Shown in pieces: positions 19,101 to 64,000 of a DNA stretch of 64,000 nucleotides; within the stretch, counting starts at the first letter, position 1; each line of letters begins with the position of its first letter. The DNA lies in NCBI GenBank assembly GCA_051294905.1, contig CM119371.1:35466001-35530000 (forward strand), given 5' to 3'. This DNA is from Botryllus schlosseri. Taxonomy: Eukaryota. The translations under genes were made by a program, and so were the position numbers. Under the pieces are notes generated by a model. That model did not search any database. It was not told where the DNA came from and worked only from the letters and a program-made list of their open reading frames with translations.

Positions 19101-19539
19101 TCTATCTTAGACAAGTGCTACACTTTTAATCACGTTCAGGAGTCGAGGCTTGTCACAAAGCATAATCGAACCGAGTTTTAGCCAATTCTACCGTCTAGCT
19201 CGAGTCGAATTTCATCTCTACTTTTCAGAGAAATTGCACGAGTATCATCACCTGGCCAACGTCTTTCGCAAAATTACACGTATAGCTCTCGGATTAAAGA
19301 CGCCGATATTTCTTTTTTAGACAAGTGCTCCACTTTTAACCACGTTCAGGATTCGAGGCTTGTCCCAAAGCATAATCGAACCGAGTTTTAGCCAATTCTA
19401 CCGTCTAGTTCGAGTCTAATTTCATCACTACTTTTCAGAGAAATTGCACGAGTATCATCACCTGGCCAACGTCTTTCGCAAAATTACACGTATAGCTCTC
19501 GGATTGAAGACGCCGATATTTCTATCTTAGACAAGTGCT

Positions 19540-29600: not shown

Positions 29601-29659
29601 TCTATCTTAGACAAGTGCTACACTTTTAATCACGTTCAGGAGTCGAGGCTTGTCGAAAA

Positions 29660-35600: not shown

Positions 35601-35670
35601 CTTTTCAGAGAAATTGCACGAGTATCATCACCTGGCCAACGTCTTTCGCAAAATTACACGTATAGCTCTC
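29660..35670. repeat. 14-monomer (2940 bp) tandem duplication; boundaries approximate
   Basis: ccgtcttgtt 29901/32841; cataattgaa 30291/33231; attttcagagaaattgcacc 31821/34761; aaattatacg 32291/35231. Confidence 0.87.
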
Positions 35671-41730: not shown

Positions 41731-44700
41731 GTCTGTCGCAAAATTACACGTATAGCTCTCGGATTGAAGACACCGATATTTCTATCTTAGACAAGTGCTC
41801 CACTTTTAATCACGTTCAGGAGTCGAGGCTTGTCCCAAAGCATAATCGAACCGAGTTTTAGCCAATTCTACCGTCTAGTTCGAGTCTAATTTCATCTCTA
41901 CTTTTCAGAGAAATTGCACGAGTATCATCACCTGGCCAACGTCTTTCGCAAAATTACACGTATAGCTCTCGGATTGAAGACGCCGATATTTCTATCTTAG
42001 ACAAGTGCTCCACTTTTAACCACGTTCAGGAGTCGAGGCTTGTCCCAAAGCATAATCGAACCGAATTTCAGCCAATTCTACCGTCTAGTTCGAGTCGAAT
42101 CTCATCTCTACTTTTCAGAGAAATAGCGCGAGTATCATCACCTGGCCAACGTCTTTCGCAAAATTACACGTATAGCTCTCGGATTAAAGTCGCCGATATT
42201 TCTATCTTAGCCAAGTGCTCCACTTTTAATCACGTTCACGAGTCGAGGCTTGTCCAAAACCATAATCGAACCGAGTTTTAGCCAATTCTACCGTCTAGTT
42301 CGAGTCGAATTTCATCTCTACTTTTCAGAGAAATTGCACGAGTATCATCACGTGGCCAACGTCTTTCGCAAAATTACACGTATAGCTCTCGGATTAAAGA
42401 CGCCGATATTTCTATCTTAGACAAGTGCTACACTTTTAATCACGTTCAGGAGTCGAGGCTTGTCGAAAAGCATAATCGAACCGAGTTTTAGCCAATTCTA
42501 CCGTCTAGTTCGAGTCGAATTTCATCTCTACTTTTCAGAGAAATTGCACGAGTATCATCACCTGGCCAACGTCTTTCGCAAAATTACACGTATAGCTCTC
42601 GGATTAAAGACGCCGATATTTCTATCTTAGACAAGTGCTCCACTTTTATTCACGTTCAGGAGTCGAGGCTTGTCCCAAAGCATAATCGAACCGAGTTTTA
42701 GCCAATTCTACCGTCTTGTTCGAGTCGAATTTCATCTCTACTTTTCAGAGAAATTGCACGAGTATCATCACCTGGCCAACGTCTTTCGCAAAATTACACG
42801 TATAGCTCTCGGATTAAAGACGCCGATATTTCTATCTTAGACAAGTGCTCCACTTTTAATCACGTTCAGGAGTCGAGGCTTGTCCCAAAGCATGATCGAA
42901 CCGAGTTTTAGCCAATTCTACCGTCTAGTTCGAGTCGAATTTCATCTCTACTTTTCAGAGAAATTGCACGAGTATCATCACCTGGCCAACGTCTTTCGCA
43001 AAATTACACGTATAGCTCTCGGATTAAAGACGCCGATATTTCTATCTTAGACAAGTGCTCCACTTTTAACCAGGTTCAGGAGTCGAGGCTTGTCCCAAAG
43101 CATAATCGAACCTAATTTCAGCCAATTCTACCGTCTAGTTCGAGTCGAATATCATCTCTACTTTTCAGAGAAATAGCGCGAGTATCATCACCTGGCTAAC
43201 GTCTTTCGCAAAATTACACGTATAGCTCTCGGATTAAAGACGCCGACATTTCTATCTTAGACAAGTGCTCCACTTTTAATCACGTTCACGAGTCGAGGCT
43301 TGTCCCAAAGCATAATCGAACCGAGTTTTAGCCAATTCTACCGTCTAGTTCGAGTTGAATTTCATCTCTACTTTTCAGAGAAATTGCACGAGTATCATCA
43401 CCTGGCCAACGTCTTTCGCAAAATTACACGTATAGCTCTCGGATTAAAGACGCCGATATTTCTATCTTAGACAAGTGCTCCACTTTTAATCACGTTCAGG
43501 AGTCGAGGCTTGTCCCAAAGCATAATCGAACCGAGTTTTAGCCAATTCTACCGTCTAGTTCGAGTCGAATTTCATCTCTACTTTTCAGAGAAATTGCACG
43601 ATTCTCATCACCTGGCCAACGTCTTTCGCAAAATTACACGTATAGCTCTCGGATTAAAGACGCCGATATTTCTATCTTAGACAAGTGCTCCACTTTTAAT
43701 CACGTTCAGGAGTCGAGGCTTGTCCCAAAGCATAATCGAACCTAATTTAAGCCAATTCTACCGTCTAGTTCGAGTCGAATATCATCTCTACTTTTCAGAG
43801 AAATTGCACGAGTATCATCACCTGGCCAACGTCTTTCGCAAAATTACACGTATAGCTCTCGGATTAAAGACGCCGATATTTCTATCTTAGACAACTGCTC
43901 CACTTTTAACCACGTTCAGGAGTCGAGGCTTGTCCCAAAGCATAATCGAACCTAATTTAAGCCAATTCTACCGTCTAGTTCGAGTCGAATATCATCTCTA
44001 CTTTGCAGAGAAATAGCGCGAGTATCATCACCTGGCTAACGTCTTTCGCAAAATTACACGTATAGCTCTCGGATTGAAGACGCCGACATTTCTATCTTAG
44101 ACAAGTGCTCCACTTTTAACCACGTTCAGGATTCGAGGCTTGTCCCAAAGCATAATCGAACCGAATTTCAGCCAATTCTACCGTCTAGTTCCAGTCGAAT
44201 CTCATCTCTACTTTTCAGAGAAATTGCACGAGTATCATCACCTGGCCAACGTTTTTCGCAAAATTACACGTATAGCTCTCGGATTAAAGACGCCGATATT
44301 TCTATCTTAGACAAGTGCTACACTTTTAATCACGTTCAGGAGTCGAGGCTTGTCACAAAGCATAATCGAACCGAGTTTTAGCCAATTCTACCGTCTAGCT
44401 CGAGTCGAATTTCATCTCTACTTTTCAGAGAAATTGCACGAGTATCATCACCTGGCCAACGTCTTTCGCAAAATTACACGTATAGCTCTCGGATTAAAGA
44501 CGCCGATATTTCTATCTTAGACAAGTGCTCCACTTTTAATCACGTTCAGGAGTCGAGGCTTGTCCCAAAGCATAATCGAACCGAGTTTTAGCCAATTCTA
44601 CCGTCTAGTTCGAGTCTAATTTCATCTCTACTTTTCAGAGAAATTGCACGAGTATCATCACCTGGCCAACGTCTTTCGCAAAATTACACGTATAGCTCTC

Positions 44701-47700
44701 GGATTAAAGACGCCGATATTTCTATCTTAGACAAGTGCTCCACTTTTAATCACGTTCAGGAGTCGAGGCTTGTCCCAAAGCATAATCGAACCGAGTTTTA
44801 GCCATTTCTACCGTCTAGTTCGAGTCTAATTTCATCTCTACTTTTCAGAGAAATTGCACGAGTATCATCACCTGGCCAACGTCTTTCGCAAAATTACACG
44901 TCTAGCTCTCGGATTAAAGACGCCGATATTTCTATCTTAGACAAGTGCTCCACTTTTAACCACGTTCAGGAGTCGAGGCTTGTCCCAAAGCATAATCGAA
45001 CCGAATTTCAGCCAATTCTACCGTCTAGTTCGAGTCGAATCTCATCTCTACTTTTCAGAGAAATAGCGCGAGTATCATCACCTGGCCAACGTCTTTCGCA
45101 AAATTACACGTATATCTCTCGGATTAAAGACGCCGATATTTCTATCTTAGCCAAGTGCTCCACTTTTAATCACGTTCACGAGTCGAGGCTTTTCCCAAAG
45201 CATAATCGAACCGAGTTTTAGCCAATTCTACCGTCTAGTTCGAGTCGAATATCATCTCTACTTTTCAGAGAAATTGCACGAGTATCATCACCTGGCCAAC
45301 GTCTTTTGCAAAATTACACGTATAGCTCTCGGATTAACGACGCCGATATTTCTATCTTAGACAAGTGCTACACTTTTAATCACTTTCAGGAGTCGAGGCT
45401 TGTCCAAAAGCATAATCGAACCGAGTTTTAGCCAATTCTACCGTCTAGTTCGAGTCGAATTTCATCTCTACTTTTCAGAGAAATTGCACGAGTATCATCA
45501 CCTGGCCAACGTCTGTCGCAAAATTACACGTATAGCTCTCGGATTGAAGACACCGATATTTCTATCTTAGACAAGTGCTCCACTTTTAATCACGTTCAGG
45601 AGTCGAGGCTTGTCCCAAAGCATAATCGAACCGAGTTTTAGCCAATTCTACCGTCTAGTTCGAGTCTAATTTCATCTCTACTTTTCAGAGAAATTGCACG
45701 AGTATCATCACCTGGCCAACGTCTTTCGCAAAATTACACGTATAGCTCTCGGATTGAAGACGCCGATATTTCTATCTTAGACAAGTGCTCCACTTTTAAC
45801 CACGTTCAGGAGTCGAGGCTTGTCCCAAAGCATAATCGAACCGAATTTCAGCCAATTCTACCGTCTAGTTCGAGTCGAATCTCATCTCTACTTTTCAGAG
45901 AAATAGCGCGAGTATCATCACCTGGCCAACGTCTTTCGCAAAATTACACGTATAGCTCTCGGATTAAAGTCGCCGATATTTCTATCTTAGCCAAGTGCTC
46001 CACTTTTAATCACGTTCACGAGTCGAGGCTTGTCCAAAACCATAATCGAACCGAGTTTTAGCCAATTCTACCGTCTAGTTCGAGTCGAATTTCATCTCTA
46101 CTTTTCAGAGAAATTGCACGAGTATCATCACGTGGCCAACGTCTTTCGCAAAATTACACGTATAGCTCTCGGATTAAAGACGCCGATATTTCTATCTTAG
46201 ACAAGTGCTACACTTTTAATCACGTTCAGGAGTCGAGGCTTGTCGAAAAGCATAATCGAACCGAGTTTTAGCCAATTCTACCGTCTAGTTCGAGTCGAAT
46301 TTCATCTCTACTTTTCAGAGAAATTGCACGAGTATCATCACCTGGCCAACGTCTTTCGCAAAATTACACGTATAGCTCTCGGATTAAAGACGCCGATATT
46401 TCTATCTTAGACAAGTGCTCCACTTTTATTCACGTTCAGGAGTCGAGGCTTGTCCCAAAGCATAATCGAACCGAGTTTTAGCCAATTCTACCGTCTTGTT
46501 CGAGTCGAATTTCATCTCTACTTTTCAGAGAAATTGCACGAGTATCATCACCTGGCCAACGTCTTTCGCAAAATTACACGTATAGCTCTCGGATTAAAGA
46601 CGCCGATATTTCTATCTTAGACAAGTGCTCCACTTTTAATCACGTTCAGGAGTCGAGGCTTGTCCCAAAGCATGATCGAACCGAGTTTTAGCCAATTCTA
46701 CCGTCTAGTTCGAGTCGAATTTCATCTCTACTTTTCAGAGAAATTGCACGAGTATCATCACCTGGCCAACGTCTTTCGCAAAATTACACGTATAGCTCTC
46801 GGATTAAAGACGCCGATATTTCTATCTTAGACAAGTGCTCCACTTTTAACCAGGTTCAGGAGTCGAGGCTTGTCCCAAAGCATAATCGAACCTAATTTCA
46901 GCCAATTCTACCGTCTAGTTCGAGTCGAATATCATCTCTACTTTTCAGAGAAATAGCGCGAGTATCATCACCTGGCTAACGTCTTTCGCAAAATTACACG
47001 TATAGCTCTCGGATTAAAGACGCCGACATTTCTATCTTAGACAAGTGCTCCACTTTTAATCACGTTCACGAGTCGAGGCTTGTCCCAAAGCATAATCGAA
47101 CCGAGTTTTAGCCAATTCTACCGTCTAGTTCGAGTTGAATTTCATCTCTACTTTTCAGAGAAATTGCACGAGTATCATCACCTGGCCAACGTCTTTCGCA
47201 AAATTACACGTATAGCTCTCGGATTAAAGACGCCGATATTTCTATCTTAGACAAGTGCTCCACTTTTAATCACGTTCAGGAGTCGAGGCTTGTCCCAAAG
47301 CATAATCGAACCGAGTTTTAGCCAATTCTACCGTCTAGTTCGAGTCGAATTTCATCTCTACTTTTCAGAGAAATTGCACGATTCTCATCACCTGGCCAAC
47401 GTCTTTCGCAAAATTACACGTATAGCTCTCGGATTAAAGACGCCGATATTTCTATCTTAGACAAGTGCTCCACTTTTAATCACGTTCAGGAGTCGAGGCT
47501 TGTCCCAAAGCATAATCGAACCTAATTTAAGCCAATTCTACCGTCTAGTTCGAGTCGAATATCATCTCTACTTTTCAGAGAAATTGCACGAGTATCATCA
47601 CCTGGCCAACGTCTTTCGCAAAATTACACGTATAGCTCTCGGATTAAAGACGCCGATATTTCTATCTTAGACAACTGCTCCACTTTTAACCACGTTCAGG

Positions 47701-49050
47701 AGTCGAGGCTTGTCCCAAAGCATAATCGAACCTAATTTAAGCCAATTCTACCGTCTAGTTCGAGTCGAATATCATCTCTACTTTGCAGAGAAATAGCGCG
47801 AGTATCATCACCTGGCTAACGTCTTTCGCAAAATTACACGTATAGCTCTCGGATTGAAGACGCCGACATTTCTATCTTAGACAAGTGCTCCACTTTTAAC
47901 CACGTTCAGGATTCGAGGCTTGTCCCAAAGCATAATCGAACCGAATTTCAGCCAATTCTACCGTCTAGTTCCAGTCGAATCTCATCTCTACTTTTCAGAG
48001 AAATTGCACGAGTATCATCACCTGGCCAACGTTTTTCGCAAAATTACACGTATAGCTCTCGGATTAAAGACGCCGATATTTCTATCTTAGACAAGTGCTA
48101 CACTTTTAATCACGTTCAGGAGTCGAGGCTTGTCACAAAGCATAATCGAACCGAGTTTTAGCCAATTCTACCGTCTAGCTCGAGTCGAATTTCATCTCTA
48201 CTTTTCAGAGAAATTGCACGAGTATCATCACCTGGCCAACGTCTTTCGCAAAATTACACGTATAGCTCTCGGATTAAAGACGCCGATATTTCTATCTTAG
48301 ACAAGTGCTCCACTTTTAATCACGTTCAGGAGTCGAGGCTTGTCCCAAAGCATAATCGAACCGAGTTTTAGCCAATTCTACCGTCTAGTTCGAGTCTAAT
48401 TTCATCTCTACTTTTCAGAGAAATTGCACGAGTATCATCACCTGGCCAACGTCTTTCGCAAAATTACACGTATAGCTCTCGGATTAAAGACGCCGATATT
48501 TCTATCTTAGACAAGTGCTCCACTTTTAATCACGTTCAGGAGTCGAGGCTTGTCCCAAAGCATAATCGAACCGAGTTTTAGCCATTTCTACCGTCTAGTT
48601 CGAGTCTAATTTCATCTCTACTTTTCAGAGAAATTGCACGAGTATCATCACCTGGCCAACGTCTTTCGCAAAATTACACGTCTAGCTCTCGGATTAAAGA
48701 CGCCGATATTTCTATCTTAGACAAGTGCTCCACTTTTAACCACGTTCAGGAGTCGAGGCTTGTCCCAAAGCATAATCGAACCGAATTTCAGCCAATTCTA
48801 CCGTCTAGTTCGAGTCGAATCTCATCTCTACTTTTCAGAGAAATAGCGCGAGTATCATCACCTGGCCAACGTCTTTCGCAAAATTACACGTATATCTCTC
48901 GGATTAAAGACGCCGATATTTCTATCTTAGCCAAGTGCTCCACTTTTAATCACGTTCACGAGTCGAGGCTTTTCCCAAAGCATAATCGAACCGAGTTTTA
49001 GCCAATTCTACCGTCTAGTTCGAGTCGAATATCATCTCTACTTTTCAGAG
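41660..49050. repeat. Duplication with an 18-monomer (3780 bp) period; boundaries approximate
   Basis: caccgat 41771/45551; cgtggccaac 42351/46131; caggttcagg 43071/46851; gccatttcta 44801/48581; tatatctctc 45111/48891; tttcccaaag 45191/48971. Confidence 0.87.
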
Positions 49051-52000
49051 AAGTAGCGCGAGTATCATCACCTGGCTAACGTCTTTCGCAAAATTACACG
49101 TATAGCTCTCGGATTAAAGACGCCGACATTTCTATCTTAGACAAGTGCTCCACTTTTAATAACGTTCACGAGTCGGGGCTTGTCCCAAAGCATAATCGAA
49201 CCGAGTTTTAGCCAATTCTACCGTCTAGTTCGAGTCGAATTTCATCTCTACTTTTCAGAGAAATTGCACGAGTATCATCACCAGGCCAACGTCTTTCGCA
49301 AAATTACACGTATAGCTCTCGGATTAAAGACGCCGATATTTCTATCTTAGACAAGTGCTCCACTTTTAATCACGTTCAGGAGTCGAGGCTTGTCCCAAAG
49401 CATAATCGAACCGAGTTTTAGCCAATTCTACCGTCTAGTTCGAGTCGAATTTCATCTCTACTTTTCAGAGAAATTGCACGATTCTCATCACCTGGCCAAC
49501 GTCTTTCGCAAAATTACACGTATAGCTCTCGGATTAAAGACGCCGATATTTCTATCTTAGACAAGTGCTCCACTTTTAATTACGTTCAGGAGTCGAGGCT
49601 TGTCCCAAAGCATAATCGAACCGAGTTTTAGCCAATTCTACCGTCTAGTTCGAGTCGAATTTCATCTCTACTTTTTCAGAGAAATTGCACGAGTATCATC
49701 ACCTGGCAAACGTCTTTCGCAAAATCACACGTATAGCTCTCGGATTAAAGACGCCGATATTTCTATCTTAGACAAGTGCTCCACTTTTAATCACGTTCAG
49801 GAGTCGAGGCTTGTCACAAAGCATAATCGAACCGAGTTTTAGCCAATTCTACAGTCTAGCTCGAGTCGAATTTCATCTCTACTTTTCAGAGAAATTGCAC
49901 GAGTATCATCACCTGGCCAACGTCTGTCGCAAAATTACACGTATAGCTCTCGGATTAAAGACGCCGATATTTCTATCTTAGACAACTGCTCCACTTTTAA
50001 CCACGTTCAGGAGTCGAGGCTTGTCCCAAAGCATAATCGAACCTAATTTAAGCCAATTCTACCGTCTAGTTCGAGTCGAATATCATCTCTACTTTGCAGA
50101 GAAATAGCGCGAGTATCATCACCTGGCTAACGTCTTTCGCAAAATTACACGTATAGCTCTCGGATTGAAGACGCCGACATTTCTATCTTAGACAAGTGCT
50201 CCACTTTTAACCACGTTCAGGATTCGAGGCTTGTCCCAAAGCATAATCGAACCGAATTTCAGCCAATTCTACCGTCTAGTTCCAGTCGAATCTCATCTCT
50301 ACTTTTCAGAGAAATTGCACGAGTATCATCACCTGGCCAACGTTTTTCGCAAAATTACACGTATAGCTCTCGGATTAAAGACGCCGATATTTCTATCTTA
50401 GACAAGTGCTACACTTTTAATCACGTTCAGGAGTCGAGGCTTGTCACAAAGCATAATCGAACCGAGTTTTAGCCAATTCTACCGTCTAGCTCGAGTCGAA
50501 TTTCATCTCTACTTTTCAGAGAAATTGCACGAGTATCATCACCTGGCCAACGTCTTTCGCAAAATTACACGTATAGCTCTCGGATTAAAGACGCCGATAT
50601 TTCTATCTTAGACAAGTGCTCCACTTTTAATCACGTTCAGGAGTCGAGGCTTGTCCCAAAGCATAATCGAACCGAGTTTTAGCCAATTCTACCGTCTAGT
50701 TCGAGTCTAATTTCATCTCTACTTTTCAGAGAAATTGCACGAGTATCATCACCTGGCCAACGTCTTTCGCAAAATTACACGTATAGCTCTCGGATTAAAG
50801 ACGCCGATATTTCTATCTTAGACAAGTGCTCCACTTTTAATCACGTTCAGGAGTCGAGGCTTGTCCCAAAGCATAATCGAACCGAGTTTTAGCCATTTCT
50901 ACCGTCTAGTTCGAGTCTAATTTCATCTCTACTTTTCAGAGAAATTGCACGAGTATCATCACCTGGCCAACGTCTTTCGCAAAATTACACGTCTAGCTCT
51001 CGGATTAAAGACGCCGATATTTCTATCTTAGACAAGTGCTCCACTTTTAACCACGTTCAGGAGTCGAGGCTTGTCCCAAAGCATAATCGAACCGAATTTC
51101 AGCCAATTCTACCGTCTAGTTCGAGTCGAATCTCATCTCTACTTTTCAGAGAAATAGCGCGAGTATCATCACCTGGCCAACGTCTTTCGCAAAATTACAC
51201 GTATATCTCTCGGATTAAAGACGCCGATATTTCTATCTTAGCCAAGTGCTCCACTTTTAATCACGTTCACGAGTCGAGGCTTTTCCCAAAGCATAATCGA
51301 ACCGAGTTTTAGCCAATTCTACCGTCTAGTTCGAGTCGAATATCATCTCTACTTTTCAGAGAAGTAGCGCGAGTATCATCACCTGGCTAACGTCTTTCGC
51401 AAAATTACACGTATAGCTCTCGGATTAAAGACGCCGACATTTCTATCTTAGACAAGTGCTCCACTTTTAATAACGTTCACGAGTCGGGGCTTGTCCCAAA
51501 GCATAATCGAACCGAGTTTTAGCCAATTCTACCGTCTAGTTCGAGTCGAATTTCATCTCTACTTTTCAGAGAAATTGCACGAGTATCATCACCAGGCCAA
51601 CGTCTTTCGCAAAATTACACGTATAGCTCTCGGATTAAAGACGCCGATATTTCTATCTTAGACAAGTGCTCCACTTTTAATCACGTTCAGGAGTCGAGGC
51701 TTGTCTCAAAGCATAATCGAACCGAGTTTTAGCCAATTCTACCGTCTAGTTCGAGTCGAATTTCATCTCTACTTTTCAGAGAAATTGCACGATTCTCATC
51801 ACCTGGCCAACGTCTTTCGCAAAATTACACGTATAGCTCTCGGATTAAAGACGCCGATATTTCTATCTTAGACAAGTGCTCCACTTTTAATTACGTTCAG
51901 GAGTCGAGGCTTGTCCCAAAGCATAATCGAACCGAGTTTTAGCCAATTCTACCGTCTAGTTCGAGTCGAATTTCATCTCTACTTTTTCAGAGAAATTGCA

Positions 52001-52259
52001 CGAGTATCATCACCTGGCAAACGTCTTTCGCAAAATCACACGTATAGCTCTCGGATTAAAGACGCCGATATTTCTATCTTAGACAAGTGCTCCACTTTTA
52101 ATCACGTTCAGGAGTCGAGGCTTGTCACAAAGCATAATCGAACCGAGTTTTAGCCAATTCTACAGTCTAGCTCGAGTCGAATTTCATCTCTACTTTTCAG
52201 AGAAATTGCACGAGTATCATCACCTGGCCAACGTCTGTCGCAAAATTACACGTATAGCT
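47650..52259. repeat. 11-monomer (2311 bp) tandem duplication abutting the retrotransposon
   Basis: acaactg 47671/49982; gccattt 48581/50892; aagtagcgcg 49051/51362; ccaggcc 49281/51592; shared 1-bp T insertion 49672-49676/51983-51987; acagtctagc 49851/52162. Confidence 0.9.
52247..52259 (+). repeat. Target-site duplication, left copy (TACACGTATAGCT)
   Basis: Identical to 57815-57827. The first two bases (TA) are ambiguous with the TAA tail, so the TSD is 11-13 bp. Confidence 0.95.
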
Positions 52260-52456
52260 GGCATTCCCGTCTGACCGTCGTCGAGTACGGAGGTCTCTCG
52301 TGAAAGAATAATTATCGCTAGTCTTCGTTTGCCTCATTAGGTATCGATACTCCGCGAGGTTAGGTCTTTACGTAGTGTATATGCAGACGTGTCTCTTGGG
52401 ATCTTTGTCAGGTAGTTAGTAGAGTGTATACCCTCACCGCCTTGAAAGGGTAGGTG
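52260..52456 (+). promoter_or_regulatory. 5' UTR with probable internal Pol II promoter (initiator-like CATT at 52262)
   Basis: The element begins GG-CATTCCCG. CA(G/T)T starts are typical of I/Jockey-type internal promoters. CGGAGGT at about +26 to +32 is only a weak match to the downstream GACGT-type promoter element. Confidence 0.55.
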
Positions 52457-53950
52457 ATGGAGGGTATAACCTCTAATCTCAAACGTAGAATGGAAGATCC
52501 AGATAGCGACGAGGGAGCTGTTGGATCTTGCGGGAATACCAAGATTCCTGCGAGGAAATTCGCGATCGTAGATAATCCCAACGCTACGACGACTTCTCAG
52601 CCATCGTCTAGCCAAAACTTAGATAGCTCTTCACCGAGCATTATCCCCAGTGCATCATTGGCCACTCCGGTGTCAAGTGGGGGATCCGCATTCGTGACGG
52701 ATCCCGTCAATAGTATGACCGTTATAATTTCGGGCAGAGATAGGGTGATGACACGATATCACCCTGTGAAAGTTAACAGAGCTCTATACGCTATCATCGA
52801 CAGCTATGCTGGTATCAAGCCACTCCCTTCGGGAGATCTTCTACTTACGTGTCATAACCACAAGCAAGTGACTAAAATGTTAGAATGCGTTTCATTAAGT
52901 GACACGACCACAAATACTAAAATTGCTATCTCAGTTACACCTCACACCGCACAGAAGCCATACGCCAGTCGCGCAGTCATCAAAGGGGTACCCTTAGAAA
53001 TACCGGAGAGTGAGTTGTTAGAAGACCTGGCTGCCAGTAGTGTGTCACACCTCAAACGCCTGAAACGGAGGGCAGAGAAAGGGTTTGAGCCAAGCCTGTC
53101 CGTCTTGCTATACTTTAGTTCAACAGAAGTACCCAACTACGTCACGTTCGGTTACCTTCGCTTCCGCACGAACACTTACAACCCACCACCAACTCGCTGC
53201 TTCAGATGTAACAAATTCGGACATACCTCTAAATCTTGCCGCGGAAAACCGAGCTGCACAAAATGTGGCGCCATGGACCATGCATACAATGACTGCCAAA
53301 ATAACAGAAAATGCATCAATTGCAATGAAAATCATAGTGCCGCTTATGGTGGGTGCCCCGTCTATAAAGAAGAGGCAAAAATCCAAATCGTCAAAGAGAG
53401 GGAAAACCTCTCCTTCCCCGAGGCGAGGCATCAAGTACGTACACAGGATCTCGTATCGGACTCTTCGACAACGCCGCAGGATTCCATTTCTGCTTCGTCA
53501 ACAATGCCAAAAGAGTCCTACGCACATAAAGTCACCGCCAAGAACAAATCTTTGAGAGTCAGAAATCCCCTAAACAGAAATATACCAACCGCGCCATCAC
53601 CCAATGAAGGGGACTTTAGAGAACTACAGAGAAATCAATCAGAACAATCTGCGTTACGTAAACCCACCGCAACACAGACTGATAATACTGCAGGCAACAC
53701 GACAGTTCACCCGAATCAATTAGAACCGATGCAACTGCTGGTGATGGTAGCAGAAATCGTCCAGGTTACGATTACAGCTTGCCAAACTGGCAACGGAAAC
53801 ATATTTAACATCGTCGCAGAAGCGTTTGGAAAGTACTTTGGACAGCATATCGACTCGACCTTGTTGCAGAAAATGTCGAAAAACGCAAACAATCAGAATT
53901 CGGAGGCACGAAAGGAAGCCACGGTCCCACAAAATCGCAATGGACAATAA
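52457..53950 (+). CDS. ORF1: gag-like nucleic-acid-binding protein of a non-LTR retrotransposon (497 aa from the ATG)
   Basis: Three zinc knuckles: CFRCNKFGHTSKSC, CTKCGAMDHAYNDC and CINCNENHSAAYGGC. They follow an RRM-like segment (RAVIKGVPLEIPESELLEDL) and are flanked by low-complexity S/T/P/Q regions. The ATG at 52457 is in a good Kozak context (GTGATGG); the track start at 52454 is a GTG. Confidence 0.93.
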   Translation: MEGITSNLKRRMEDPDSDEGAVGSCGNTKIPARKFAIVDNPNATTTSQPSSSQNLDSSSPSIIPSASLATPVSSGGSAFVTDPVNSMTVIISGRDRVMTRYHPVKVNRALYAIIDSYAGIKPLPSGDLLLTCHNHKQVTKMLECVSLSDTTTNTKIAISVTPHTAQKPYASRAVIKGVPLEIPESELLEDLAASSVSHLKRLKRRAEKGFEPSLSVLLYFSSTEVPNYVTFGYLRFRTNTYNPPPTRCFRCNKFGHTSKSCRGKPSCTKCGAMDHAYNDCQNNRKCINCNENHSAAYGGCPVYKEEAKIQIVKERENLSFPEARHQVRTQDLVSDSSTTPQDSISASSTMPKESYAHKVTAKNKSLRVRNPLNRNIPTAPSPNEGDFRELQRNQSEQSALRKPTATQTDNTAGNTTVHPNQLEPMQLLVMVAEIVQVTITACQTGNGNIFNIVAEAFGKYFGQHIDSTLLQKMSKNANNQNSEARKEATVPQNRNGQ

Positions 53951-56900
53951 AACGCTAACCATATTACAATGGAATTGCCGTAGTATATATAAAAAATTGC
54001 CGGAGTTCAAGCATTTTCTTTCGACCCTAGATCACAAACCAGATGTTATTCTTTTGCAAGAGACTCACCTAATCGACAAATATACTCCGAAATTACGGGG
54101 CTATCGGCTTTTCCGACGCGACAAGACGGTTCACAAGGGTGGTCTGGCAGCTTTCGTTGCAGAATCTCTGAGTTGTAGCGAGGACGTTTCCGTGGCGTCG
54201 AATTGCTTCGAGTTGATGTGCCTGAGACTTGCCGACATAACTATATGCAACGTCTATATACCTCCCGATTACACTTTGAGCCAAGACGACCTCTCTTTCC
54301 TGTCATCTTTAGAGTCGCGGTCACTCATTTGTGGTGACTTTAATGCTCACCATTGGGCATGGAGCCATCGCTCAAACCAACGGGGTAACCGACTTTATGA
54401 TTATATTGACAGGCATAACTTCGTTTTGCTCAACAATTCGCAACCTACGAGAATCAACCTGTCCGCAGATGCCATACATCGCTCATCCCTGATTGATTTA
54501 ACCCTTGCGTCACCAGACATTGCGGCTTGTTGTCACACCAGCGTTTCAGGTCACCTCATTGGCAGCGATCACTTTTTAGTGTCCACGACATTTCACTGCA
54601 ATGTGGCACGTTCGCAAAAAATACCAAGATGGTGTTTGAAAAAAGCCAACTGGCTGGATTTCTCGCAGAACGTGGACCGTGCCCTCAGCAGCCCAATGCC
54701 GGAAAATGTACAGCAACTCAATACTGCTCTCACAAATATCATAGTCAATTCCGCCAAAATCACAATTCCCCGGACGCGAAACACCAACAAGATCCCTGTG
54801 CCTTGGTGGAATAAGGACTGTGAAAGGGCCGTTCGACGCAAGAAAGCTGCATTCTTGAAAATGAAAAGATCTTTCAATTACCGTGACGTGATCTGCTTTA
54901 GGCGACTGCGGTCGGAATGCCGCAAAACCATTCTGACTGCAAAGAGGTCGTGCTGGGAAGAGTTTTGCGATTCTATTAACCGAAAAACGGACTTCCGCAA
55001 GGTGTGGAAAATTGTGGCATCGATGTCCAGGGCCTCCGCACCTCGCTCAATACCAATACTCAATGTCAACAACACTACATTGAAGACCGATCGACGCAAA
55101 ACCGAAGCCCTCTCGGTGGCCTTCTGTAAAGTCAGTAGTAACGCGAATTACCCAGTGACCTTCATGCAATATAGAAATGAAATCGAAAGAATTCAAATGC
55201 CCACCGCAAATTCAAATCGTATTGGAGGTGAATTGAACATACCCTTCAGTATGTCAGAGTTGGAATGCGCAATACGCTCCCGGAAAGACACGTCTCCAGG
55301 GGGCGATTCAATCTGTTATGCAATGTTGAAACACCTTTCCGGCAACTCGCTGCAGCATCTACTACGCCTCTTCAATGAATCCTGGGTCAGCGGAGAAATT
55401 CCCTCCGACTGGAAGCATTCTATTGTAATCCCGATTTTCAAGCAAGGCAAAGATGGCACCGATCCCAAGTCATATCGACCAATTTCTCTTACGAGTCATC
55501 TCTGCAAAGTGATGGAGGTTATGGTCGCAAACAGAATACGCTGGCACTTGGAGGCCCACAATTTGCTACATCCCTCTCAGTCAGGCTTCCGAAAGGGGAG
55601 GTGTACTCTAGACCACGCCATACGACTCCATGACTCGATATACAAGGCTATCAATAACCAACGGTCAACGATAGCCGTATTTCTCGATATAGAACGCGCT
55701 TACGACATGGTTTGGCGAAAAGGTTTACTATTGAAGCTATCTCGGCTTGGTATTGGTGAGAAAGCACTCTGCTGGATCCAGAATTTCCTTACAAATCGAA
55801 CCTACCAAGTGCGTGTCGGAAATACGCTGTCCGATGTAAACAGCCTCGATAACGGAATCCCCCAAGGAAGCGTTTTGAGTCCGTTGCTTTTCACCGTGAT
55901 GTTGAACGATGTGCCCCTAGATGTTCGAAGCAGCGTTGGCATTTACGCGGATGACTGTGCCATATGGGAGAGCGGTCTTGGTATACCCACGATCGTTTCA
56001 TCAATTCAGAGGTCTCTTGACTCGGTGCAGGAATGGTGTAGTAAATGGGGATTCGTTCTCTCAAAAACGAAGTCTGTAGCAATGCTCTTCACTAGGAAAA
56101 GAAAGATTCCCGATGTGCACTTGCACATTGACGGAAATCGCATCAACCTCGTTGACAACTTCAAGTATCTTGGTATTACTTTTGATAAGTTGTTGACGTA
56201 CAAAACACATATTGACAACGTCGCGAAAAAATGCTCCAGACGAATGGGATTACTTCGTGTCGTCACACACACCGCATGGGGTGCTAATAAACACGCACTT
56301 CTACAGTTATACAGATCTCTTATCAGATCCGTCATCGACTATGGTATGCCAGCATACTTTTTCACATCGAAATATAACACTCACAAATTAGGGCTAATAC
56401 AGAACCAAGCTTTACGCTTGTGTTGCGGAGCAATGCGGAGTACACCCATATGTGCTTTGCAAGCCGCCTGTAACGAACCTCCTCTCCACATTCGACACAA
56501 ATATTTGTGTATGAATTATCGGTGCCACTTGCTTGGTCAGGAATACAACCAACACCCATCAACTGAACTACTAACTGATTCATGGCATGAAATTTACTCC
56601 TTGATAAGACCGAACTTCAAGACGTTCAATACCCTGTCAAAATCCCCTATTCTGGAACGGTTAATGGTGGAAAAAGAACGAATTCAGTTCGTGGCACCCT
56701 GGACAGTTCCACTTCCCACGGTCGACAGATCATTAACTCGGCTTATACGAAAGGGGGACTCGCCAATCTCAGTGAACTCGTGTTTCAGAGATTACCTTTT
56801 CGAGTGCCACGACCAAGCCGTCGAGATCTACACAGACGGTTCAAAGACGGATACAGCAACGGCTTTCGCGATTTACATACCATCACAGTCAGTCCGACTT

Positions 56901-57668
56901 AGCCAGATCTGCCCGAGTTTATTTTCCGTTTTTCAAGTGGAGATGCTAGCTATCGCTAATGCTCTATCGTGGATAATCCATCATGGCAGTCGAACCGATA
57001 AATATGTTATTCTGACAGATTGTCTTAGTGTTCTGAACACAATCGCCACCCCGAACCGCACACCGAGCAGAACGTTCAATAAGATTTTTCCTCTCTTCCT
57101 GCAGATTGTAGGGATGGGGATCGACGTTGCCTTCTCCTGGGTTCCAGGACATAGTGGCATTCCCGGCAATGAGGTTGCAGATGAACTTGCACGTTCCACC
57201 GCCTCTTTCGCATTTGACAGTCAGGGAATACCTCAAATTACCTATAGAGATGTCAAGAACGAAGTACGAAAATACGTCCGGACTGAGTGGCAGACCGAGT
57301 ACCGTTCAACAGAGACGGGAAACCACTACAAACGTTTCCACCGAACGGTACGAACAACGTTTCCCTCGATGCACAGATCGCGTTTGTATGAAACGATAAT
57401 ATTCCGTCTCCGGTCCGGCCATTGTCGCCTAAAGGGGCATTTATTTAAAATAGGCTGCATCGACACGCCTTTGTGTGACTTATGCCACGTACCCGAGAAT
57501 GTAGATCACTTCCTCCTCGCATGCTCAAAATACGATTGGCACCGAGCATATTTAATTGATTTCTGCTTGAACTTGAAAGTTGAGTTGACCACATATAACC
57601 TTCTCGTACGACCAGAACTTCTCTCGCCTCTCGTCGAGTTCGTCCTGGCAAGCAATGTTTTGATTTGA
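53940..57668 (+). CDS. ORF2: APE endonuclease / reverse transcriptase / RNase H / CCHC polyprotein (1242 aa from the ATG)
   Basis: APE motifs: QWNCRS, LQETH, GDFNAHH, IDLTL, GSDH. RT motifs: YRPISLTS, QSGFR, FLDIERAYD, GIPQGSVLSP, YADD (55944-55955), YLGI. RNase H motifs: IYTDGSK (from 56826), TDCLS, WVPGHSGIPGNEVADELAR. C-terminal CDLCHVPENVDHFLLAC (57474-57524). No stops or frameshifts. The ATG at 53940 (GCAATGG) is preferred to the TTG at 53826 because APE begins immediately after it. Confidence 0.97.
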   Translation: MDNKTLTILQWNCRSIYKKLPEFKHFLSTLDHKPDVILLQETHLIDKYTPKLRGYRLFRRDKTVHKGGLAAFVAESLSCSEDVSVASNCFELMCLRLADITICNVYIPPDYTLSQDDLSFLSSLESRSLICGDFNAHHWAWSHRSNQRGNRLYDYIDRHNFVLLNNSQPTRINLSADAIHRSSLIDLTLASPDIAACCHTSVSGHLIGSDHFLVSTTFHCNVARSQKIPRWCLKKANWLDFSQNVDRALSSPMPENVQQLNTALTNIIVNSAKITIPRTRNTNKIPVPWWNKDCERAVRRKKAAFLKMKRSFNYRDVICFRRLRSECRKTILTAKRSCWEEFCDSINRKTDFRKVWKIVASMSRASAPRSIPILNVNNTTLKTDRRKTEALSVAFCKVSSNANYPVTFMQYRNEIERIQMPTANSNRIGGELNIPFSMSELECAIRSRKDTSPGGDSICYAMLKHLSGNSLQHLLRLFNESWVSGEIPSDWKHSIVIPIFKQGKDGTDPKSYRPISLTSHLCKVMEVMVANRIRWHLEAHNLLHPSQSGFRKGRCTLDHAIRLHDSIYKAINNQRSTIAVFLDIERAYDMVWRKGLLLKLSRLGIGEKALCWIQNFLTNRTYQVRVGNTLSDVNSLDNGIPQGSVLSPLLFTVMLNDVPLDVRSSVGIYADDCAIWESGLGIPTIVSSIQRSLDSVQEWCSKWGFVLSKTKSVAMLFTRKRKIPDVHLHIDGNRINLVDNFKYLGITFDKLLTYKTHIDNVAKKCSRRMGLLRVVTHTAWGANKHALLQLYRSLIRSVIDYGMPAYFFTSKYNTHKLGLIQNQALRLCCGAMRSTPICALQAACNEPPLHIRHKYLCMNYRCHLLGQEYNQHPSTELLTDSWHEIYSLIRPNFKTFNTLSKSPILERLMVEKERIQFVAPWTVPLPTVDRSLTRLIRKGDSPISVNSCFRDYLFECHDQAVEIYTDGSKTDTATAFAIYIPSQSVRLSQICPSLFSVFQVEMLAIANALSWIIHHGSRTDKYVILTDCLSVLNTIATPNRTPSRTFNKIFPLFLQIVGMGIDVAFSWVPGHSGIPGNEVADELARSTASFAFDSQGIPQITYRDVKNEVRKYVRTEWQTEYRSTETGNHYKRFHRTVRTTFPSMHRSRLYETIIFRLRSGHCRLKGHLFKIGCIDTPLCDLCHVPENVDHFLLACSKYDWHRAYLIDFCLNLKVELTTYNLLVRPELLSPLVEFVLASNVLI

Positions 57669-57796
57669 ACAAATTTTCGTTAAGGTACACACACGACTTG
57701 CGAAGGTACACGACTTGCAACTGGTAATACAACATTTCTGTCGTGGCGCACCAGACCGATAAGGTGACAAGCGCCACAATGTCCCATTTTCAAAAT
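57669..57796 (+). other. 3' UTR of the retrotransposon, with a short tandem duplication and a stem-loop
   Basis: Lies between the ORF2 stop (TGA ending 57668) and the TAA tail. Contains the inverted repeat GTGGCGC (57743-57749) / GCGCCAC (57771-57777). Confidence 0.85.
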
Positions 57797-57814
57797 TAAT
57801 AATAATAATAATAA
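57797..57814 (+). repeat. (TAA)6 3' tail
   Basis: Six TAA units between CAAAAT and the TSD. A tandem TAA tail instead of poly(A) is characteristic of I-factor-like elements. Confidence 0.93.
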
Positions 57815-57827
57815 TACACGTATAGCT
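57815..57827 (+). repeat. Target-site duplication, right copy (TACACGTATAGCT)
   Basis: Follows (TAA)6 and is identical to 52247-52259. Confidence 0.95.
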
Positions 57828-58710
57828 CTCGGATTAAAGACGCCGATATTTCTATCTTAGACAAGTGCTCCACTTTTAATCACGTTCAGGAGTCGAGGCT
57901 TGTCCCAAAGCATAATCGAACCGAGTTTTAGCCAATTCTAATGTCTAGTTCAAGTCTAATTTCATCTCTACTTTTCAGAGAAATTGCACGAGTATCATCA
58001 CCTGGCCAACGTCTTTCGCAAAATTACACGTATAGCTCTCGGATTAAAGACGCCAATATTTCTTTCTTAGACAGGTGCTCCACTTTTAACCACGTTCAGG
58101 AGTCGAGGCTTGTCCCAAAGCATACTCGAACCGAATTTCAGCCAATTCTACCGTCTAGTTCGAGTCGAATCTCATCTCTACTTTTCAGAGAAATAGCGCG
58201 AGTATCATCACCTGGCCAACGTCTTTCGCAAAATTACACGTATAGCTCTCGGATTAAAGACGCCGATATTTCTATCTTAGCCAAGTGCTCCACTTTTAAT
58301 CACGTTCACGAGTCAAGGCTTGTCCCAAAGCATAATCGAACCGAGTTTTAGCCAATTCTACCGTCTAGTTCGAGTCGAATTTCATCTCTACTTTTCAGAG
58401 AAATTGCACGAGTATCATCACCTGGCCAACGTCTTTCGCAAAATTACACGTATAGCTTTCGGATTAAAGACGCCGATATTTCTATCTTAGACAAGTGCTC
58501 CACTTTTAATCACGTTCAGGAGTCGAGGCTTGTCCCAAAGCATAATCGAACCGAGTTTTACCCAATTCTACCGTCTAGTTCGAGTCGAATTTCATCTCTA
58601 CTTTTCAGAGAAATTGCACGAGTATCATCACCTGGCCAACGTCTTTCGCAAAATTACACGTATAGCTCTCGGATTAAAGACGCCGATATTTCTATCTTAG
58701 ACAAGTGCTC

Positions 58711-61700
58711 TACTTTAAACCACGTTCAGGAGTCGAGGCTTGTCCCAAAGCATAATCGAACCTAATTTAAGCCAATTCTACCGTCTAGTTCGAGTCGAAT
58801 ATCATCTCTACTTTTCAGAGAAATAGCGCGAGTATCATCACCTGGCTAACGTCTTTCGCAAAATTACACGTATAGCTCTCGGATTAAAGACGCCGACATT
58901 TCTATCTTAGACAAGTGCTCCACTTTTAACCACGTTCAGGATTCGAGGCTTGTCCCAAAGCATAATCGAACCGAATTTCAGCCAATTCTACCGTCTAGTT
59001 CGAGTCGAATCTCATCTCTACTTTTCAGAGAAATTGCACGAGTATCATCACCTGGCCAACGTTTTTCGCAAAATTACACGTATAGCTCTCGGATTAAAGA
59101 CGCCGATATTTCTATCTTAGACAAGTGCTCCACTTTTAATCACGTTCAGGAGTCGAGGCTTGTCCCAAAGCATAATCGAACCGAGTTTTAGCCAATTCTA
59201 CCGTCTAGTTCGAGTCGAATTTCATCTCTACTTTTCAGAGAAATTGCACGAGTATCATCACCTGGCCAACGTCTTTCGCAAAATTACACGTATAGCTCTC
59301 GGATTAAAGACGCCGATATTTCTATCTTAGACAAGTGCTACACTTTTAATCACGTTCAGGAGTCGAGGCTTGTCACAAAGCATAATCGAACCGAGTTTTA
59401 GCCAATTCTACCGTCTAGTTCGAGTCTAATTTCATCTCTACTTTTCAGAGAAATTGCACGAGTATCATCACCTGGCCAACGTCTTTCGCAAAATTACACG
59501 TATAGCTCTCGGATTAAAGACGCCGATATTTCTATCTTAGACAAGTGCTCCATATTTAATCACGTTCAGGAGTCGAGGCTTGTCCCAAAGCATATTCGAA
59601 CCGAGTTTTAGCCAATTCTACCGTCTAGTTCGAGTCTAATTTCATCTCTACTTTTCAGAGAAATTGCACGAGTATCATCACCTGGCCAACGTCTTTCGCA
59701 AAATTACACGTATAGCTCTCGGATTAAAGACGCCGATATTTCTATCTTAGACAAGTGCTCCACTTTTAACCACGTTCAGGAGTCGAGGCTTGTCCCAAAG
59801 CATAATCGAACCGAATTTCAGCCAATTCTACCGTCTAGTTCGAGTCGAATCTCATCTCTACTTTTCAGAGAAATAGCGCGAGTATCATCACCTGGCCAAC
59901 GTCTTTCGCAAAATTACACGTATAGCTCTCGGATTAAAGACGCCGATATTTCTATCTTAGCCAAGTGCTCCACTTTTAATCACGTTCATGAGTCGAGGCT
60001 TGTCCCAAAGCATAATCGAACCGAGTTTTAGCCAATTCTACCGTCTAGTTCGAGTCGAATTTCATCTCTACTTTTCAGAGAAATTGCATGAGTATCATCA
60101 CATGGCCAACGTCTTTCGCAAAATTACACGTATAGCTTTCGGATTAAAGACGCCGATATTTCTATCTTAGACAAGTGCTCCACTTTTAATCACGTTCAGG
60201 AGTCGAGGCTTGTACCAAAGCATAATCGAACCGAGTTTTAGCCAATTCTACCGTCTAGTTCGAGTCGAATTTCATCTCTACTTTTCAGAGAAATTGCACG
60301 AGTATCATCACCTGGCCAACGTCTTTCGCAAAATTACACGTATAGCTCTCGGATTAAAGACGCCGATATTTCTATCTTAGACAAGTGCTCCACTTTAAAC
60401 CACGTTCAGGAGTCGAGGCTTGTCCCAAAGCATAATCGAACCTAATTTAAGCCAATTCTACCGTCTAGTTCGAGTCGAATATCATCTCTACTTTTCAGAG
60501 AAATAGCGCGAGTATCATCACCTGGCTAACGTCTTTCGCAAAATTACACGTATAGCTCTCGGATTAAAGACGCCGACATTTCTATCTTAGACAAGTGCTC
60601 CACTTTTAACCACGTTCAGGATTCGAGGCTTGTCCCAAAGCATAATCGAACCGAATTTCAGCCAATTCTACCGTCTAGTTCGAGTCGAATCTCATCTCTA
60701 CTTTTCAGAGAAATTGCACGAGTATCATCACCTGGCCAACGTTTTTCGCAAAATTACACGTATAGCTCTCGGATTAAAGACGCCGATATTTCTATCTTAG
60801 ACAAGTGCTCCACTTTTAATCACGTTCAGGAGTCGAGGCTTGTCCCAAAGCATAATCGAACCGAGTTTTAGCCAATTCTACCGTCTAGTTCGAGTCGAAT
60901 TTCATCTCTACTTTTCAGAGAAATTGCACGAGTATCATCACCTGGCCAACGTCTTTCGCAAAATTACACGTATAGCTCTCGGATTAAAGACGCCGATATT
61001 TCTATCTTAGACAAGTGCTACACTTTTAATCACGTTCAGGAGTCGAGGCTTGTCACAAAGCATAATCGAACCGAGTTTTAGCCAATTCTACCGTCTAGTT
61101 CGAGTCTAATTTCATCTCTACTTTTCAGAGAAATTGCACGAGTATCATCACCTGGCCAACGTCTTTCGCAAAATTACACGTATAGCTCTCGGATTAAAGA
61201 CGCCGATATTTCTATCTTAGACAAGTGCTCCATATTTAATCACGTTCAGGAGTCGAGGCTTGTCCCAAAGCATATTCGAACCGAGTTTTAGCCAATTCTA
61301 CCGTCTAGTTCGAGTCTAATTTCATCTCTACTTTTCAGAGAAATTGCACGAGTATCATCACCTGGCCAACGTCTTTCGCAAAATTACACGTATAGCTCTC
61401 GGATTAAAGACGCCGATATTTCTATCTTAGACAAGTGCTCCACTTTTAACCACGTTCAGGAGTCGAGGCTTGTCCCAAAGCATAATCGAACCGAATTTCA
61501 GCCAATTCTACCGTCTAGTTCGAGTCGAATCTCATCTCTACTTTTCAGAGAAATAGCGCGAGTATCATCACCTGGCCAACGTCTTTCGCAAAATTACACG
61601 TATAGCTCTCGGATTAAAGACGCCGATATTTCTATCTTAGCCAAGTGCTCCACTTTTAATCACGTTCATGAGTCGAGGCTTGTCCCAAAGCATAATCGAA

Positions 61701-62070
61701 CCGAGTTTTAGCCAATTCTACCGTCTAGTTCGAGTCGAATTTCATCTCTACTTTTCAGAGAAATTGCATGAGTATCATCACATGGCCAACGTCTTTCGCA
61801 AAATTACACGTATAGCTTTCGGATTAAAGACGCCGATATTTCTATCTTAGACAAGTGCTCCACTTTTAATCACGTTCAGGAGTCGAGGCTTGTACCAAAG
61901 CATAATCGAACCGAGTTTTAGCCAATTCTACCGTCTAGTTCGAGTCGAATTTCATCTCTACTTTTCAGAGAAATTGCACGAGTATCATCACCTGGCCAAC
62001 GTCTTTCGCAAAATTACACGTATAGCTCTCGGATTAAAGACGCCGATATTTCTATCTTAGACAAGTGCTC
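58711..62070. repeat. 8-monomer (1680 bp) tandem duplication; boundaries approximate
   Basis: actttaaac 58712/60392; catatttaat 59551/61231; cacgttcatg 59981/61661; tgtaccaaag 60211/61891. Confidence 0.88.
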
Positions 62071-64000
62071 CACTTTTAACCACGTTCAGGAGTCGAGGCT
62101 TGTCCCAAAGCATATTCGAACCGAGTTTTAGCTAATTCTACCGTCTAGTTCGAGTCTAATTTCATCTCTACTTTTCAGAGAAATTGCACGAGTATCATCA
62201 CCTGACCAACGTCTTTCGCAAAATTACACGTATAGCTCTCGGATTAAAGACGCCGATATTTCTATCTTAGACAAGTGCTCCACTTTTAACCACGTTCAGG
62301 AGTCGAGGCTTGTCCCAAAGCATAATCGAACCGAATTTCAGCCAATTCTACCGTCTAGTTCGAGTCGAATCTCATCTCTACTTTTCAGAGAAATAGCGCG
62401 AGTATCATCACCTGGCCAACGTCTTTCGCAAAATTACACGTATAGCTCTCGGATTAAAGACGCCGATATTTCTATCTTAGCCAAGTGCTCCACTTTTAAT
62501 CACGTTCACGAGTCGAGGCTTGTCCCAAAGCATAATCGAACCGAGTTTTAGCCAATTCTACCGTCTAGTTCGAGTCGAATTTCATCTCTACTTTTCAGAG
62601 AAATTGCACGAGTATCATCACCTGGCCAACGTCTTTCGCAAAATTACACGTATAGCTTTCGGATTAAAGACGCCGATATTTCTATCTTAGACAAGTGCTC
62701 CACTTTTAATCACGTTCACGAGTCGAGGCTTGTCCCAAAGCATAATCGAACCGAGTTTTAGCCAATTCTACCGTCTAGTTCGAGTCGAATTTCATCTCTA
62801 CTTTTCAGAGAAATTGCACGAGTATCATCACCTGGCCAACGTCTTTCGCAAAATTACACGTATAGCTTTCGGATTAAAGACGCCGATATTTCTATCTTAG
62901 ACAAGTGCTCCACTTTTAATCACGTTCAGGAGTCGAGGCTTGTCCCAAAGCATAATCGAACCGAGTTTTAGCCAATTCTACCGTCTAGTTCGAGTCGAAT
63001 CTCATCTCTACTTTTCAGAGAAATAGCGCGAGTATCATCACTTGGCCAACGTCTTTCGCAAAATTACACGTATAGCTCTCGGATTAAAGACGCCGATATT
63101 TCTATCTTAGCCAAGTGCTCCACTTTTAATCACGTTCACGAGTCGAGGCTTGTCCCAAAGCATAATCGAACCGAGTTTTAGCCAATTCTACCGTCTAGTT
63201 CGAGTCGAATTTCATCTCTACTTTTCAGAGAAATTGCACGAGTATCATCACCTGGCCAACGTCTTTCGCAAAATTACACGTATAGCTCTCGGATTAAAGA
63301 CGCCGATATTTCTATCTTAGACAAGTGCTCCACGTTTAACCACGTTCAGGAGTCGAGGCTTGTCCCAAAGCATAATCGAACCTAATTTAAGCCAATTCTA
63401 CCGTCTAGTTCGAGTCGAATATCATCTCTACTTTTCAGAGAAATTGCACGAGTATCATCACCTGGCCAACGTTTTTCGCAAAATTACACGTATAGCTCTC
63501 GGATTAAAGACGCCGATATTTCTATCTTAGACGAGTGCTCCACTTTTAATTACGTTCACGAGTCGAGGCTTGTCCCAAAGCATAATCGAACCGAGTTTTA
63601 GCCAATTCTACCGTCTAGTTCGAGTCGAATTTCATCTCTACTTTTCAGAGAAATTGCACGAGTATCATCACCTGGCCAACGTCTTTCGCAAAATTACACG
63701 TATAGCTTTCGGATTAAAGACGCCGATATTTCTATCTTAGACAAGTGCTCCACTTTTAATCACGTTCAGGAGTCGAGGCTTGTCCCAAAGCATAATCGAA
63801 CCGAGTTTTAGCCAATTCTACCGTCTAGTTCGAGTCGAATTTCATCTCTACTTTTCAGAGAAATTGCACGAGTATCATCACCTGGCCAACGTCTTTCGCA
63901 AAATTACACGTATAGCTCTCGGATTAAAGACGCCGATATTTCTATCTTAGACAAGTGCTCCACTTTTAATCACGTTCAGGAGTCGAGGCTTGTCCCAAAG

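What the first reader, a model, noticed from the sequence alone, without database searches (positions are those of the whole stretch)
57785..57827. The element's 3' end reproduces the target sequence across the insertion site (CAAAAT|TA)
Seen: the empty site reads CAAAAT-TACACGTATAGCT (52241-52259). The 3' junction reads CAAAAT-(TAA)6-TACACGTATAGCT (57791-57827), so it looks like the target with the tail dropped into the cut site. CAAAATTA (57791-57798) equals 52241-52248, and the upstream TTTT loosely matches consensus TTTCG. Inference, with three readings: (a) the RNA 3' end pairs with target DNA to guide or prime TPRT, giving a mechanism for satellite specificity; (b) the true TSD is 19 bp with TAA slippage inside it; (c) an AT-rich coincidence.
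Basis: partly seen in the sequence, partly recalled or inferred. Interest (0 to 1): 0.7.

Follow-up and report, generated by a model that had tools for sequence, protein, structure and literature searches.

The report
Satellite LINE with target-like pre-tail hexamer
A complete jumping gene (LINE) sits in a satellite repeat, and six bases just before its TAA tail equal the six bases just before its landing site, but they lie on the side of the cut that would not prime copying, so the match is most likely a coincidence of two A-rich sequences and not RNA-guided targeting.

Summary
An intact I-group-like LINE (52260-57814; ORF1, APE-RT-RNase H) sits in a 210-bp satellite with a 13-bp duplication and a (TAA)6 tail. 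CAAAAT precedes both the tail and the insertion site, the best match among 420 satellite positions (about 0.2% by chance under A-rich composition). The priming half of reading (a) fails for this copy: the hexamer matches the non-primer side of the nick and the tail was copied. The hybrid is weak (-1.7 kcal/mol against -3.4 for the DNA duplex), similarity does not extend upstream, and 2 of 2 relatives with a readable target show no such match. The decisive test, the 3' ends of other family copies, could not be run: no genome is held and the read lay skipped the tail end. Odds: coincidence at an A-tract/TpA site 0.60, target-derived hexamer 0.20, RNA guidance 0.12, inherited capture 0.08. An earlier unchecked scan note reports several dispersed I-like families hitting one or two nucleotides of a 210-bp satellite 60 kb away, which fits an endonuclease hot spot; none of the notes returned mentioned the hexamer match.

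The parts
1..52259 (+). 210-bp satellite array, left of the insertion (about 249 copies)
   Evidence: TRF; 274 regular monomers in the window, mean 97.7% identity to consensus
52241..52246 (+). CAAAAT directly upstream of the duplication (A-tract next to the nick)
   Evidence: present in 272 of 278 monomers
52247..52259 (+). left copy of the 13-bp target-site duplication
52260..57814 (+). full-length non-LTR retrotransposon, 5555 bp
52457..53950 (+). ORF1, gag-like, three Cys-His knuckles
   Evidence: no Pfam hit
53940..57668 (+). ORF2: APE endonuclease, reverse transcriptase, RNase H, C-terminal Cys-His motif; no internal stop
   Evidence: Pfam
57743..57777 (+). 3' UTR stem-loop shared with relatives, likely the RT recognition signal
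   Evidence: fold z = -3.4; 40 of 42 cells paired in 7 sequences, one compensatory pair
57791..57796 (+). pre-tail CAAAAT, equal to 52241-52246; last 6 nt of a 20-nt spacer between stem and tail
57797..57814 (+). (TAA)6 tail
57815..57827 (+). right copy of the 13-bp duplication; its first TA is shared with the tail phase
57815..64000 (+). 210-bp satellite array, right of the insertion (about 29.5 copies)

Best explanation
An intact I-group-like LINE lies in the satellite with a 13-bp duplication and a (TAA)6 tail, likely inserted by ordinary target-primed reverse transcription, and the CAAAAT before its tail is probably the element's own A-rich spacer that happens to equal the A-tract beside the cut. 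Shown: boundaries, duplication, tail, hexamer identity, open ORFs, the conserved 3' stem-loop. Inferred: the APE domain nicked the bottom strand at or next to the TpA step of 5'-GTGTAATTTTG-3'; the primer end (GTGT or GTGTA) paired with 1-2 nt of the UAA tail; RT, positioned by the stem-loop, copied tail, spacer and body; the second nick fell 13 bp away. Site choice would come from the endonuclease and DNA shape (A-tract/TpA), not from RNA-DNA pairing.
For: The match is on the non-primer side and the tail was retained. In SART1 and R1Bm the target-like RNA matches the primer side and RT starts there (PMC7265360 passages); L1 priming also depends on the primer's last 4-10 nt (PMC3649969 passages). 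Hybrid dG37 -1.7 (6-mer) and -2.5 (8-mer) against -3.4 and -5.0 for DNA:DNA. No similarity beyond the hexamer. Relatives with a readable target, L001 (15-bp duplication) and L004 (neighbouring repeat copy taken as the empty site), have a 0-nt run, 1/6 and 2/6 identity. Pre-tail hexamers of 8 relatives are 23/48 A and 16/48 C, and 2 of 8 already match CAAAAT at 4 of 6 positions; L005/L007 end in CAAA(TAA)n. The site is 1 of 4 A4 tracts in the monomer. The tail is a lineage feature (L001, L005, L007, in a 98/92 clade with the window element).
Against: The site is the unique best of 420 positions; chance for one element is only about 0.04-0.5% for 6/6 and 0.6-5% for at least 5/6, so this reading leans on post-hoc selection among many junctions scanned. 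The stem-to-tail spacer (20 nt) is longer than in all 6 relatives measured (9-16 nt), which leaves room for a target-derived addition. The control is only 2 distant relatives (ORF2 32% and 44% identical).
Confidence: 0.6

Rival explanations
1. The hexamer comes from the target (effective 19-bp duplication with the tail inside). RT copied the tail, switched to the upstream top strand through the TA microhomology (or aborted and was re-nicked 6 nt further), copied 5-6 nt, and returned to the RNA just before the tail.
For: Exact register; spacer 20 nt against 9-16 nt in 6 relatives, 14 nt without the hexamer; 19 bp is within the 7-20 nt range for L1 duplications, and the target is unzipped during L1 TPRT (PMC7617806 passages).
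Against: Needs two template switches or two nicks. Simple slippage has no seed: AAAATTAA occurs 0 times in the satellite. Relatives carry the TAA tail as their own.
Confidence: 0.2
2. RNA-assisted site choice: the fixed pre-tail CAAAAU pairs with the melted bottom strand upstream of the nick while the tail loops out and primes, biasing insertion to CAAAAT|TA sites, which occur once per satellite monomer.
For: Unique best match among 420 positions; target DNA is unzipped in L1 and R2 TPRT complexes (PMC7617806 passages); the hexamer and tail are unpaired in the predicted fold of the last 77 nt.
Against: Wrong side for priming; hybrid weaker than the duplex; 8-mer expected every 8-14 kb so it cannot give satellite specificity by itself; absent in 2 of 2 testable relatives; the hexamer is partly paired in the longer 155-nt fold; target-specific APE elements are reported mainly in the R1 and Tx1 clades (PMC4640811 passages).
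Confidence: 0.12
3. Inherited capture without function: an ancestor inserted in this satellite with a nick 6 nt upstream, read-through fixed CAAAAT in a subfamily's 3' end, and the site is re-hit because it is an endonuclease hot spot.
For: The window copy differs from all or nearly all laid contigs at several positions, so it may be a distinct subfamily; long spacer.
Against: Read-through puts target sequence behind the old tail, not in front of it; no older tail lies upstream of the hexamer; the target continues TAC, not TAA.
Confidence: 0.08

Closest known systems
I-group non-LTR retrotransposons (Drosophila I factor; Nimb-like elements of aquatic invertebrates)
   Same: ORF1 with three Cys-His motifs, ORF2 APE-RT-RNase H-Cys/His (PMC2881922 passages), TAA-repeat tail (PMC3747384 passages), short duplication
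   Different: Nearest database ORF2 is 48% identical (P0001), so the family has no close relative among the proteins found; clade (I or Nimb) not resolved; lies in a satellite
SART1Bm and R1Bm (R1 clade), where target-like RNA anneals to the target
   Same: A target-like sequence near the RNA 3' end of an APE element sitting in a tandem repeat
   Different: There the RNA matches the primer (downstream) side and RT starts on it; here the match is upstream and the tail was copied (PMC7265360 passages)
Human L1 snap-velcro priming
   Same: Tail-primer complementarity at an A/T-rich nick
   Different: Here only 1-2 nt (TA) of tail-primer complementarity; tail is (TAA)n (PMC3649969 passages)

Membership tests
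I group non-LTR retrotransposon | ORF1 with three Cys-His knuckles | tested here: met
   motifs at residues 249, 268, 287 of the ORF1 frame
I group non-LTR retrotransposon | ORF2 with APE, RT and RNase H in that order | tested here: met
   Pfam PF14529/PF03372, PF00078, PF00075
I group non-LTR retrotransposon | short tandem (TAA)n tail and target-site duplication | tested here: met
   (TAA)6 and 13 bp
I group non-LTR retrotransposon | RT phylogeny against named reference clades (I, Nimb, Ingi, Loa, Tad1, R1) | not testable with these tools
   tree holds no classified references; the labels I-like and Nimb-like rest on domain anatomy and recall
Site-specific LINE with RNA-target pairing (SART1/R1Bm type) | target-like RNA matches the primer side of the nick | tested here: not met
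   match is upstream of the duplication; 57814 A against 52246 T
Site-specific LINE with RNA-target pairing (SART1/R1Bm type) | reverse transcription starts at the target-like sequence | tested here: not met
   18-nt tail lies between hexamer and duplication
Site-specific LINE with RNA-target pairing (SART1/R1Bm type) | most copies at one target nucleotide | tested here: inconclusive
   no genome; the lay skipped the tail end

The most novel reading that the evidence does not exclude
An I-group LINE uses a fixed hexamer in front of its UAA tail to pair with the melted strand upstream of the nick while the tail loops out and primes: a two-point RNA clamp across the cut that steers insertions into a satellite, a form of RNA-assisted targeting not described for APE elements in the papers read here.
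Probability: 0.12. Interest if true: 0.75.

Novelty: new member of a known kind. Interest (0 to 1): 0.2.

Why it matters
If the best reading holds, this is an ordinary young LINE in a satellite, useful only as one more data point for a possible insertion hot spot. If the hexamer is target-derived, it records a rare template switch at a 3' junction. If the RNA-clamp reading were true, it would be a new way for an APE retrotransposon to choose sites, re-programmable by six RNA bases, and would explain LINE accumulation in a satellite. One alignment of family 3' ends separates the three.

Tried and rejected
No whole genome is held, so no copy census. Runs holding the element: 20 of 24 listed, best share of words 0.52; no RNA holder listed on record. 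Lay of 4 runs on the last 600 bp: 55 and 914 contigs, 0 and 4 RNA reads, but the tail-containing end was skipped as a repeat, so neither pre-tail bases nor 3' flanks were shown; 12 of 112 loose-end rows were shown. By eye, 3 of the 4 upstream loose ends shown for X1 look like diverged ORF2 sequence and 1 may be a non-satellite 5' flank; I draw no conclusion on dispersion from them. Spurious-ORF route: antisense frames across the junction found 0 homologues and 4 unrelated proteins. A 20-nt pattern in viral contigs: 0 hits. Relatives from collection scans: 12 metagenome loci, 80 kept of 114 from prokaryote-genome contigs, 0 and 4 viral; 22 loci were examined for 3' ends (plus L002) and only L001/L002 and L004 gave a readable target. 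My first hairpin bracket string was one column off, corrected. Extended spacer-satellite similarity rejected. Replication slippage inside a 19-bp duplication rejected for lack of a seed. The R1Bm read-through paper (PMC1074724) is not held. Paper searches listed nothing on upstream-side RNA pairing in an I-group element; I saw listings for most and passages for eight papers, and subscription journals are missing, so this is no proof of absence. No supplements were read.

Full report
What is there. The window is a 210-bp satellite (1-52259 and 57815-64000), 274 regular monomers at 97.7% mean identity to consensus, interrupted once by a 5555-bp element (52260-57814). The element has ORF1 (52457-53950, three Cys-His knuckles) and an open ORF2 (53940-57668) with APE endonuclease, RT and RNase H. 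It ends in (TAA)6 and is flanked by a 13-bp duplication. This is the anatomy of I-group non-LTR retrotransposons (PMC2881922 and PMC3747384, passages). The nearest protein found is 48% identical. The clade within the group was not resolved, because the tree has no classified references.

Observation. All coordinates and strings in the finding are right. The match is more than a loose impression: of 420 positions in the monomer, only the real site has a 6-nt run equal to the bases before the tail, and it is 1 of 28 sites followed by TA. The TA itself is ordinary tail-primer microhomology, so six bases need explaining. Chance is 4e-4 at element composition and about 2e-3 at the pre-tail composition of 8 relatives; at least 5 of 6 matches has 0.6-5% depending on A-richness. 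The suggested TTTT/TTTCG extension adds nothing (p 0.31-0.49), and the real left monomer reads TGTCG.

Geometry. In TPRT the primer is the bottom strand under the duplicated sequence (established knowledge). Base 57814 is A and target base 52246 is T, so the primer ended at 5'-...GTGT(A)-3' unless trimmed. CAAAAT lies across the nick. Had the primer included ATTTTG and paired with CAAAAUUA, RT would have started there and no tail would be present. In SART1 and R1Bm the target-like RNA matches the primer side and RT starts on it (PMC7265360, passages); L1 priming depends on the last 4-10 primer bases (PMC3649969, passages). So this copy was not primed by the hexamer. A guiding role needs the RNA to hold the upstream strand: the hybrid is -1.7 (6-mer) or -2.5 kcal/mol (8-mer) against -3.4 and -5.0 for the duplex, and the 8-mer is expected every 8-14 kb at 36-42% GC. 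Protein-driven unzipping of the target is real in L1 and R2 (PMC7617806, passages), which keeps the idea alive but does not support it.

Relatives. Collection scans gave 96 loci; 22 were examined for 3' ends. Six distinct ones share a 3' stem-loop with the window element: 40 of 42 cells paired, one compensatory pair, 12 of 500 shuffles as high; the window stem folds at z = -3.4. L001, L005 and L007 end in (TAA)n and group with the window element at 98/92, so the tail is the lineage's own. Only two had a readable target. L001 (15-bp duplication; L002 is nearly the same locus) and L004 (neighbouring repeat copy taken as the empty site; 5' junction not found) show a 0-nt run and 1/6 and 2/6 identity. 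Pre-tail hexamers of 8 relatives are A/C-rich, and 2 of them match CAAAAT at 4 of 6 positions without any link to this satellite. Against coincidence: the stem-to-tail spacer is 20 nt here and 9, 9, 9, 10, 10 and 16 nt in relatives, which leaves room for six target-derived bases.

The test that could not be run. No genome is held. Twenty of 24 listed runs hold part of the element. The lay shows a diverse multi-copy family (55 and 914 contigs on 600 bp; 47 of 55 and 818 of 914 at 90% identity or more), but it skipped the tail-containing end, so other copies' pre-tail bases and flanks remain unseen. Searches with translations across the junction and a pattern scan gave nothing. Whether CAAAAT is fixed in the family, and where other copies sit, is therefore open.

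Earlier notes (leads, not evidence). e1-7804641 reports several distinct, dispersed I-like families at the same one or two nucleotides of a 210-bp satellite 60 kb beyond this window. I could not check it, nor whether it is the same nucleotide. If it is, different 3' ends using one site would favour the endonuclease over RNA pairing. e1-7884193 says I-type LINEs in this genome end in TAA repeats, in line with the tail being the element's own. Other notes call the host a sea squirt; I did not test that.

Mechanism and odds. Most likely (0.60) an ordinary TPRT event at a TpA next to one of four A4 tracts in the monomer, with an A-rich spacer that matches by chance and was picked out of many junctions. 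Next (0.20) a target-derived hexamer by template switching or abort-and-re-nick; plain slippage is rejected as AAAATTAA never occurs in the satellite. RNA-assisted site choice 0.12; inherited capture 0.08. These odds are my judgement, not a computation. Target-specific APE elements are reported mainly in the R1 and Tx1 clades (PMC4640811, passages), with specificity attributed to the endonuclease (PMC3812793, passages). PMC11481361 (passages) notes SINEs sharing 3' ends with Nimb LINEs, which fits the shared stem-loop.

Verdict. A real sequence match in a new member of a known LINE group. It works like an I factor, and it fails two tests of SART1/R1Bm-type pairing. Interest 0.2; the novel reading has probability 0.12 and would merit 0.75.

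Noticed in passing
window 57743-57777; L001:8708-8741, L004:8615-8648, L005:3281-3313, L007:2761-2793, L012:4031-4063, L042:2057-2089: A 6-bp stem (TGGCRC/GYGCCA) is kept in the 3' UTR of 7 elements with about 30-44% ORF2 identity, with one compensatory pair; in the lay this stretch is far deeper (9764) than the UTR before it (274), and contigs join ORF2 to it over other sequence, so many families or SINEs likely share it.
   Followed up: partly
window 52241-52259 and its copies: The 19-bp target is tied for the least variable 19-bp window of the monomer by frequency (0.4% against 2.4% elsewhere; rank 2 of 210 overlapping windows), but unremarkable by number of distinct alleles (60 of 210 windows as low); part of it served as my anchor.
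   Followed up: partly
L004:2919 and 8675: The 44% relative also ends against a repeat that has a second copy upstream, and has a CAAA-type tail instead of TAA; its 5' junction was not located.
   Followed up: partly
L013-L027, L040, L042: Many prokaryote genome assemblies carry contigs with whole or partial eukaryote-type APE-RT-RNase H LINEs, probably host contamination.
   Followed up: no
window 57239-57660: The window copy differs from all or nearly all laid contigs at about 8 positions, so the runs hold a sister subfamily or a related species.
   Followed up: no
satellite monomer position 170 (for example window 57985): The monomer has a second look-alike of the target (GAAAT|TGCACG), 40 bp upstream, the joint second-best match to the pre-tail.
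   Followed up: no
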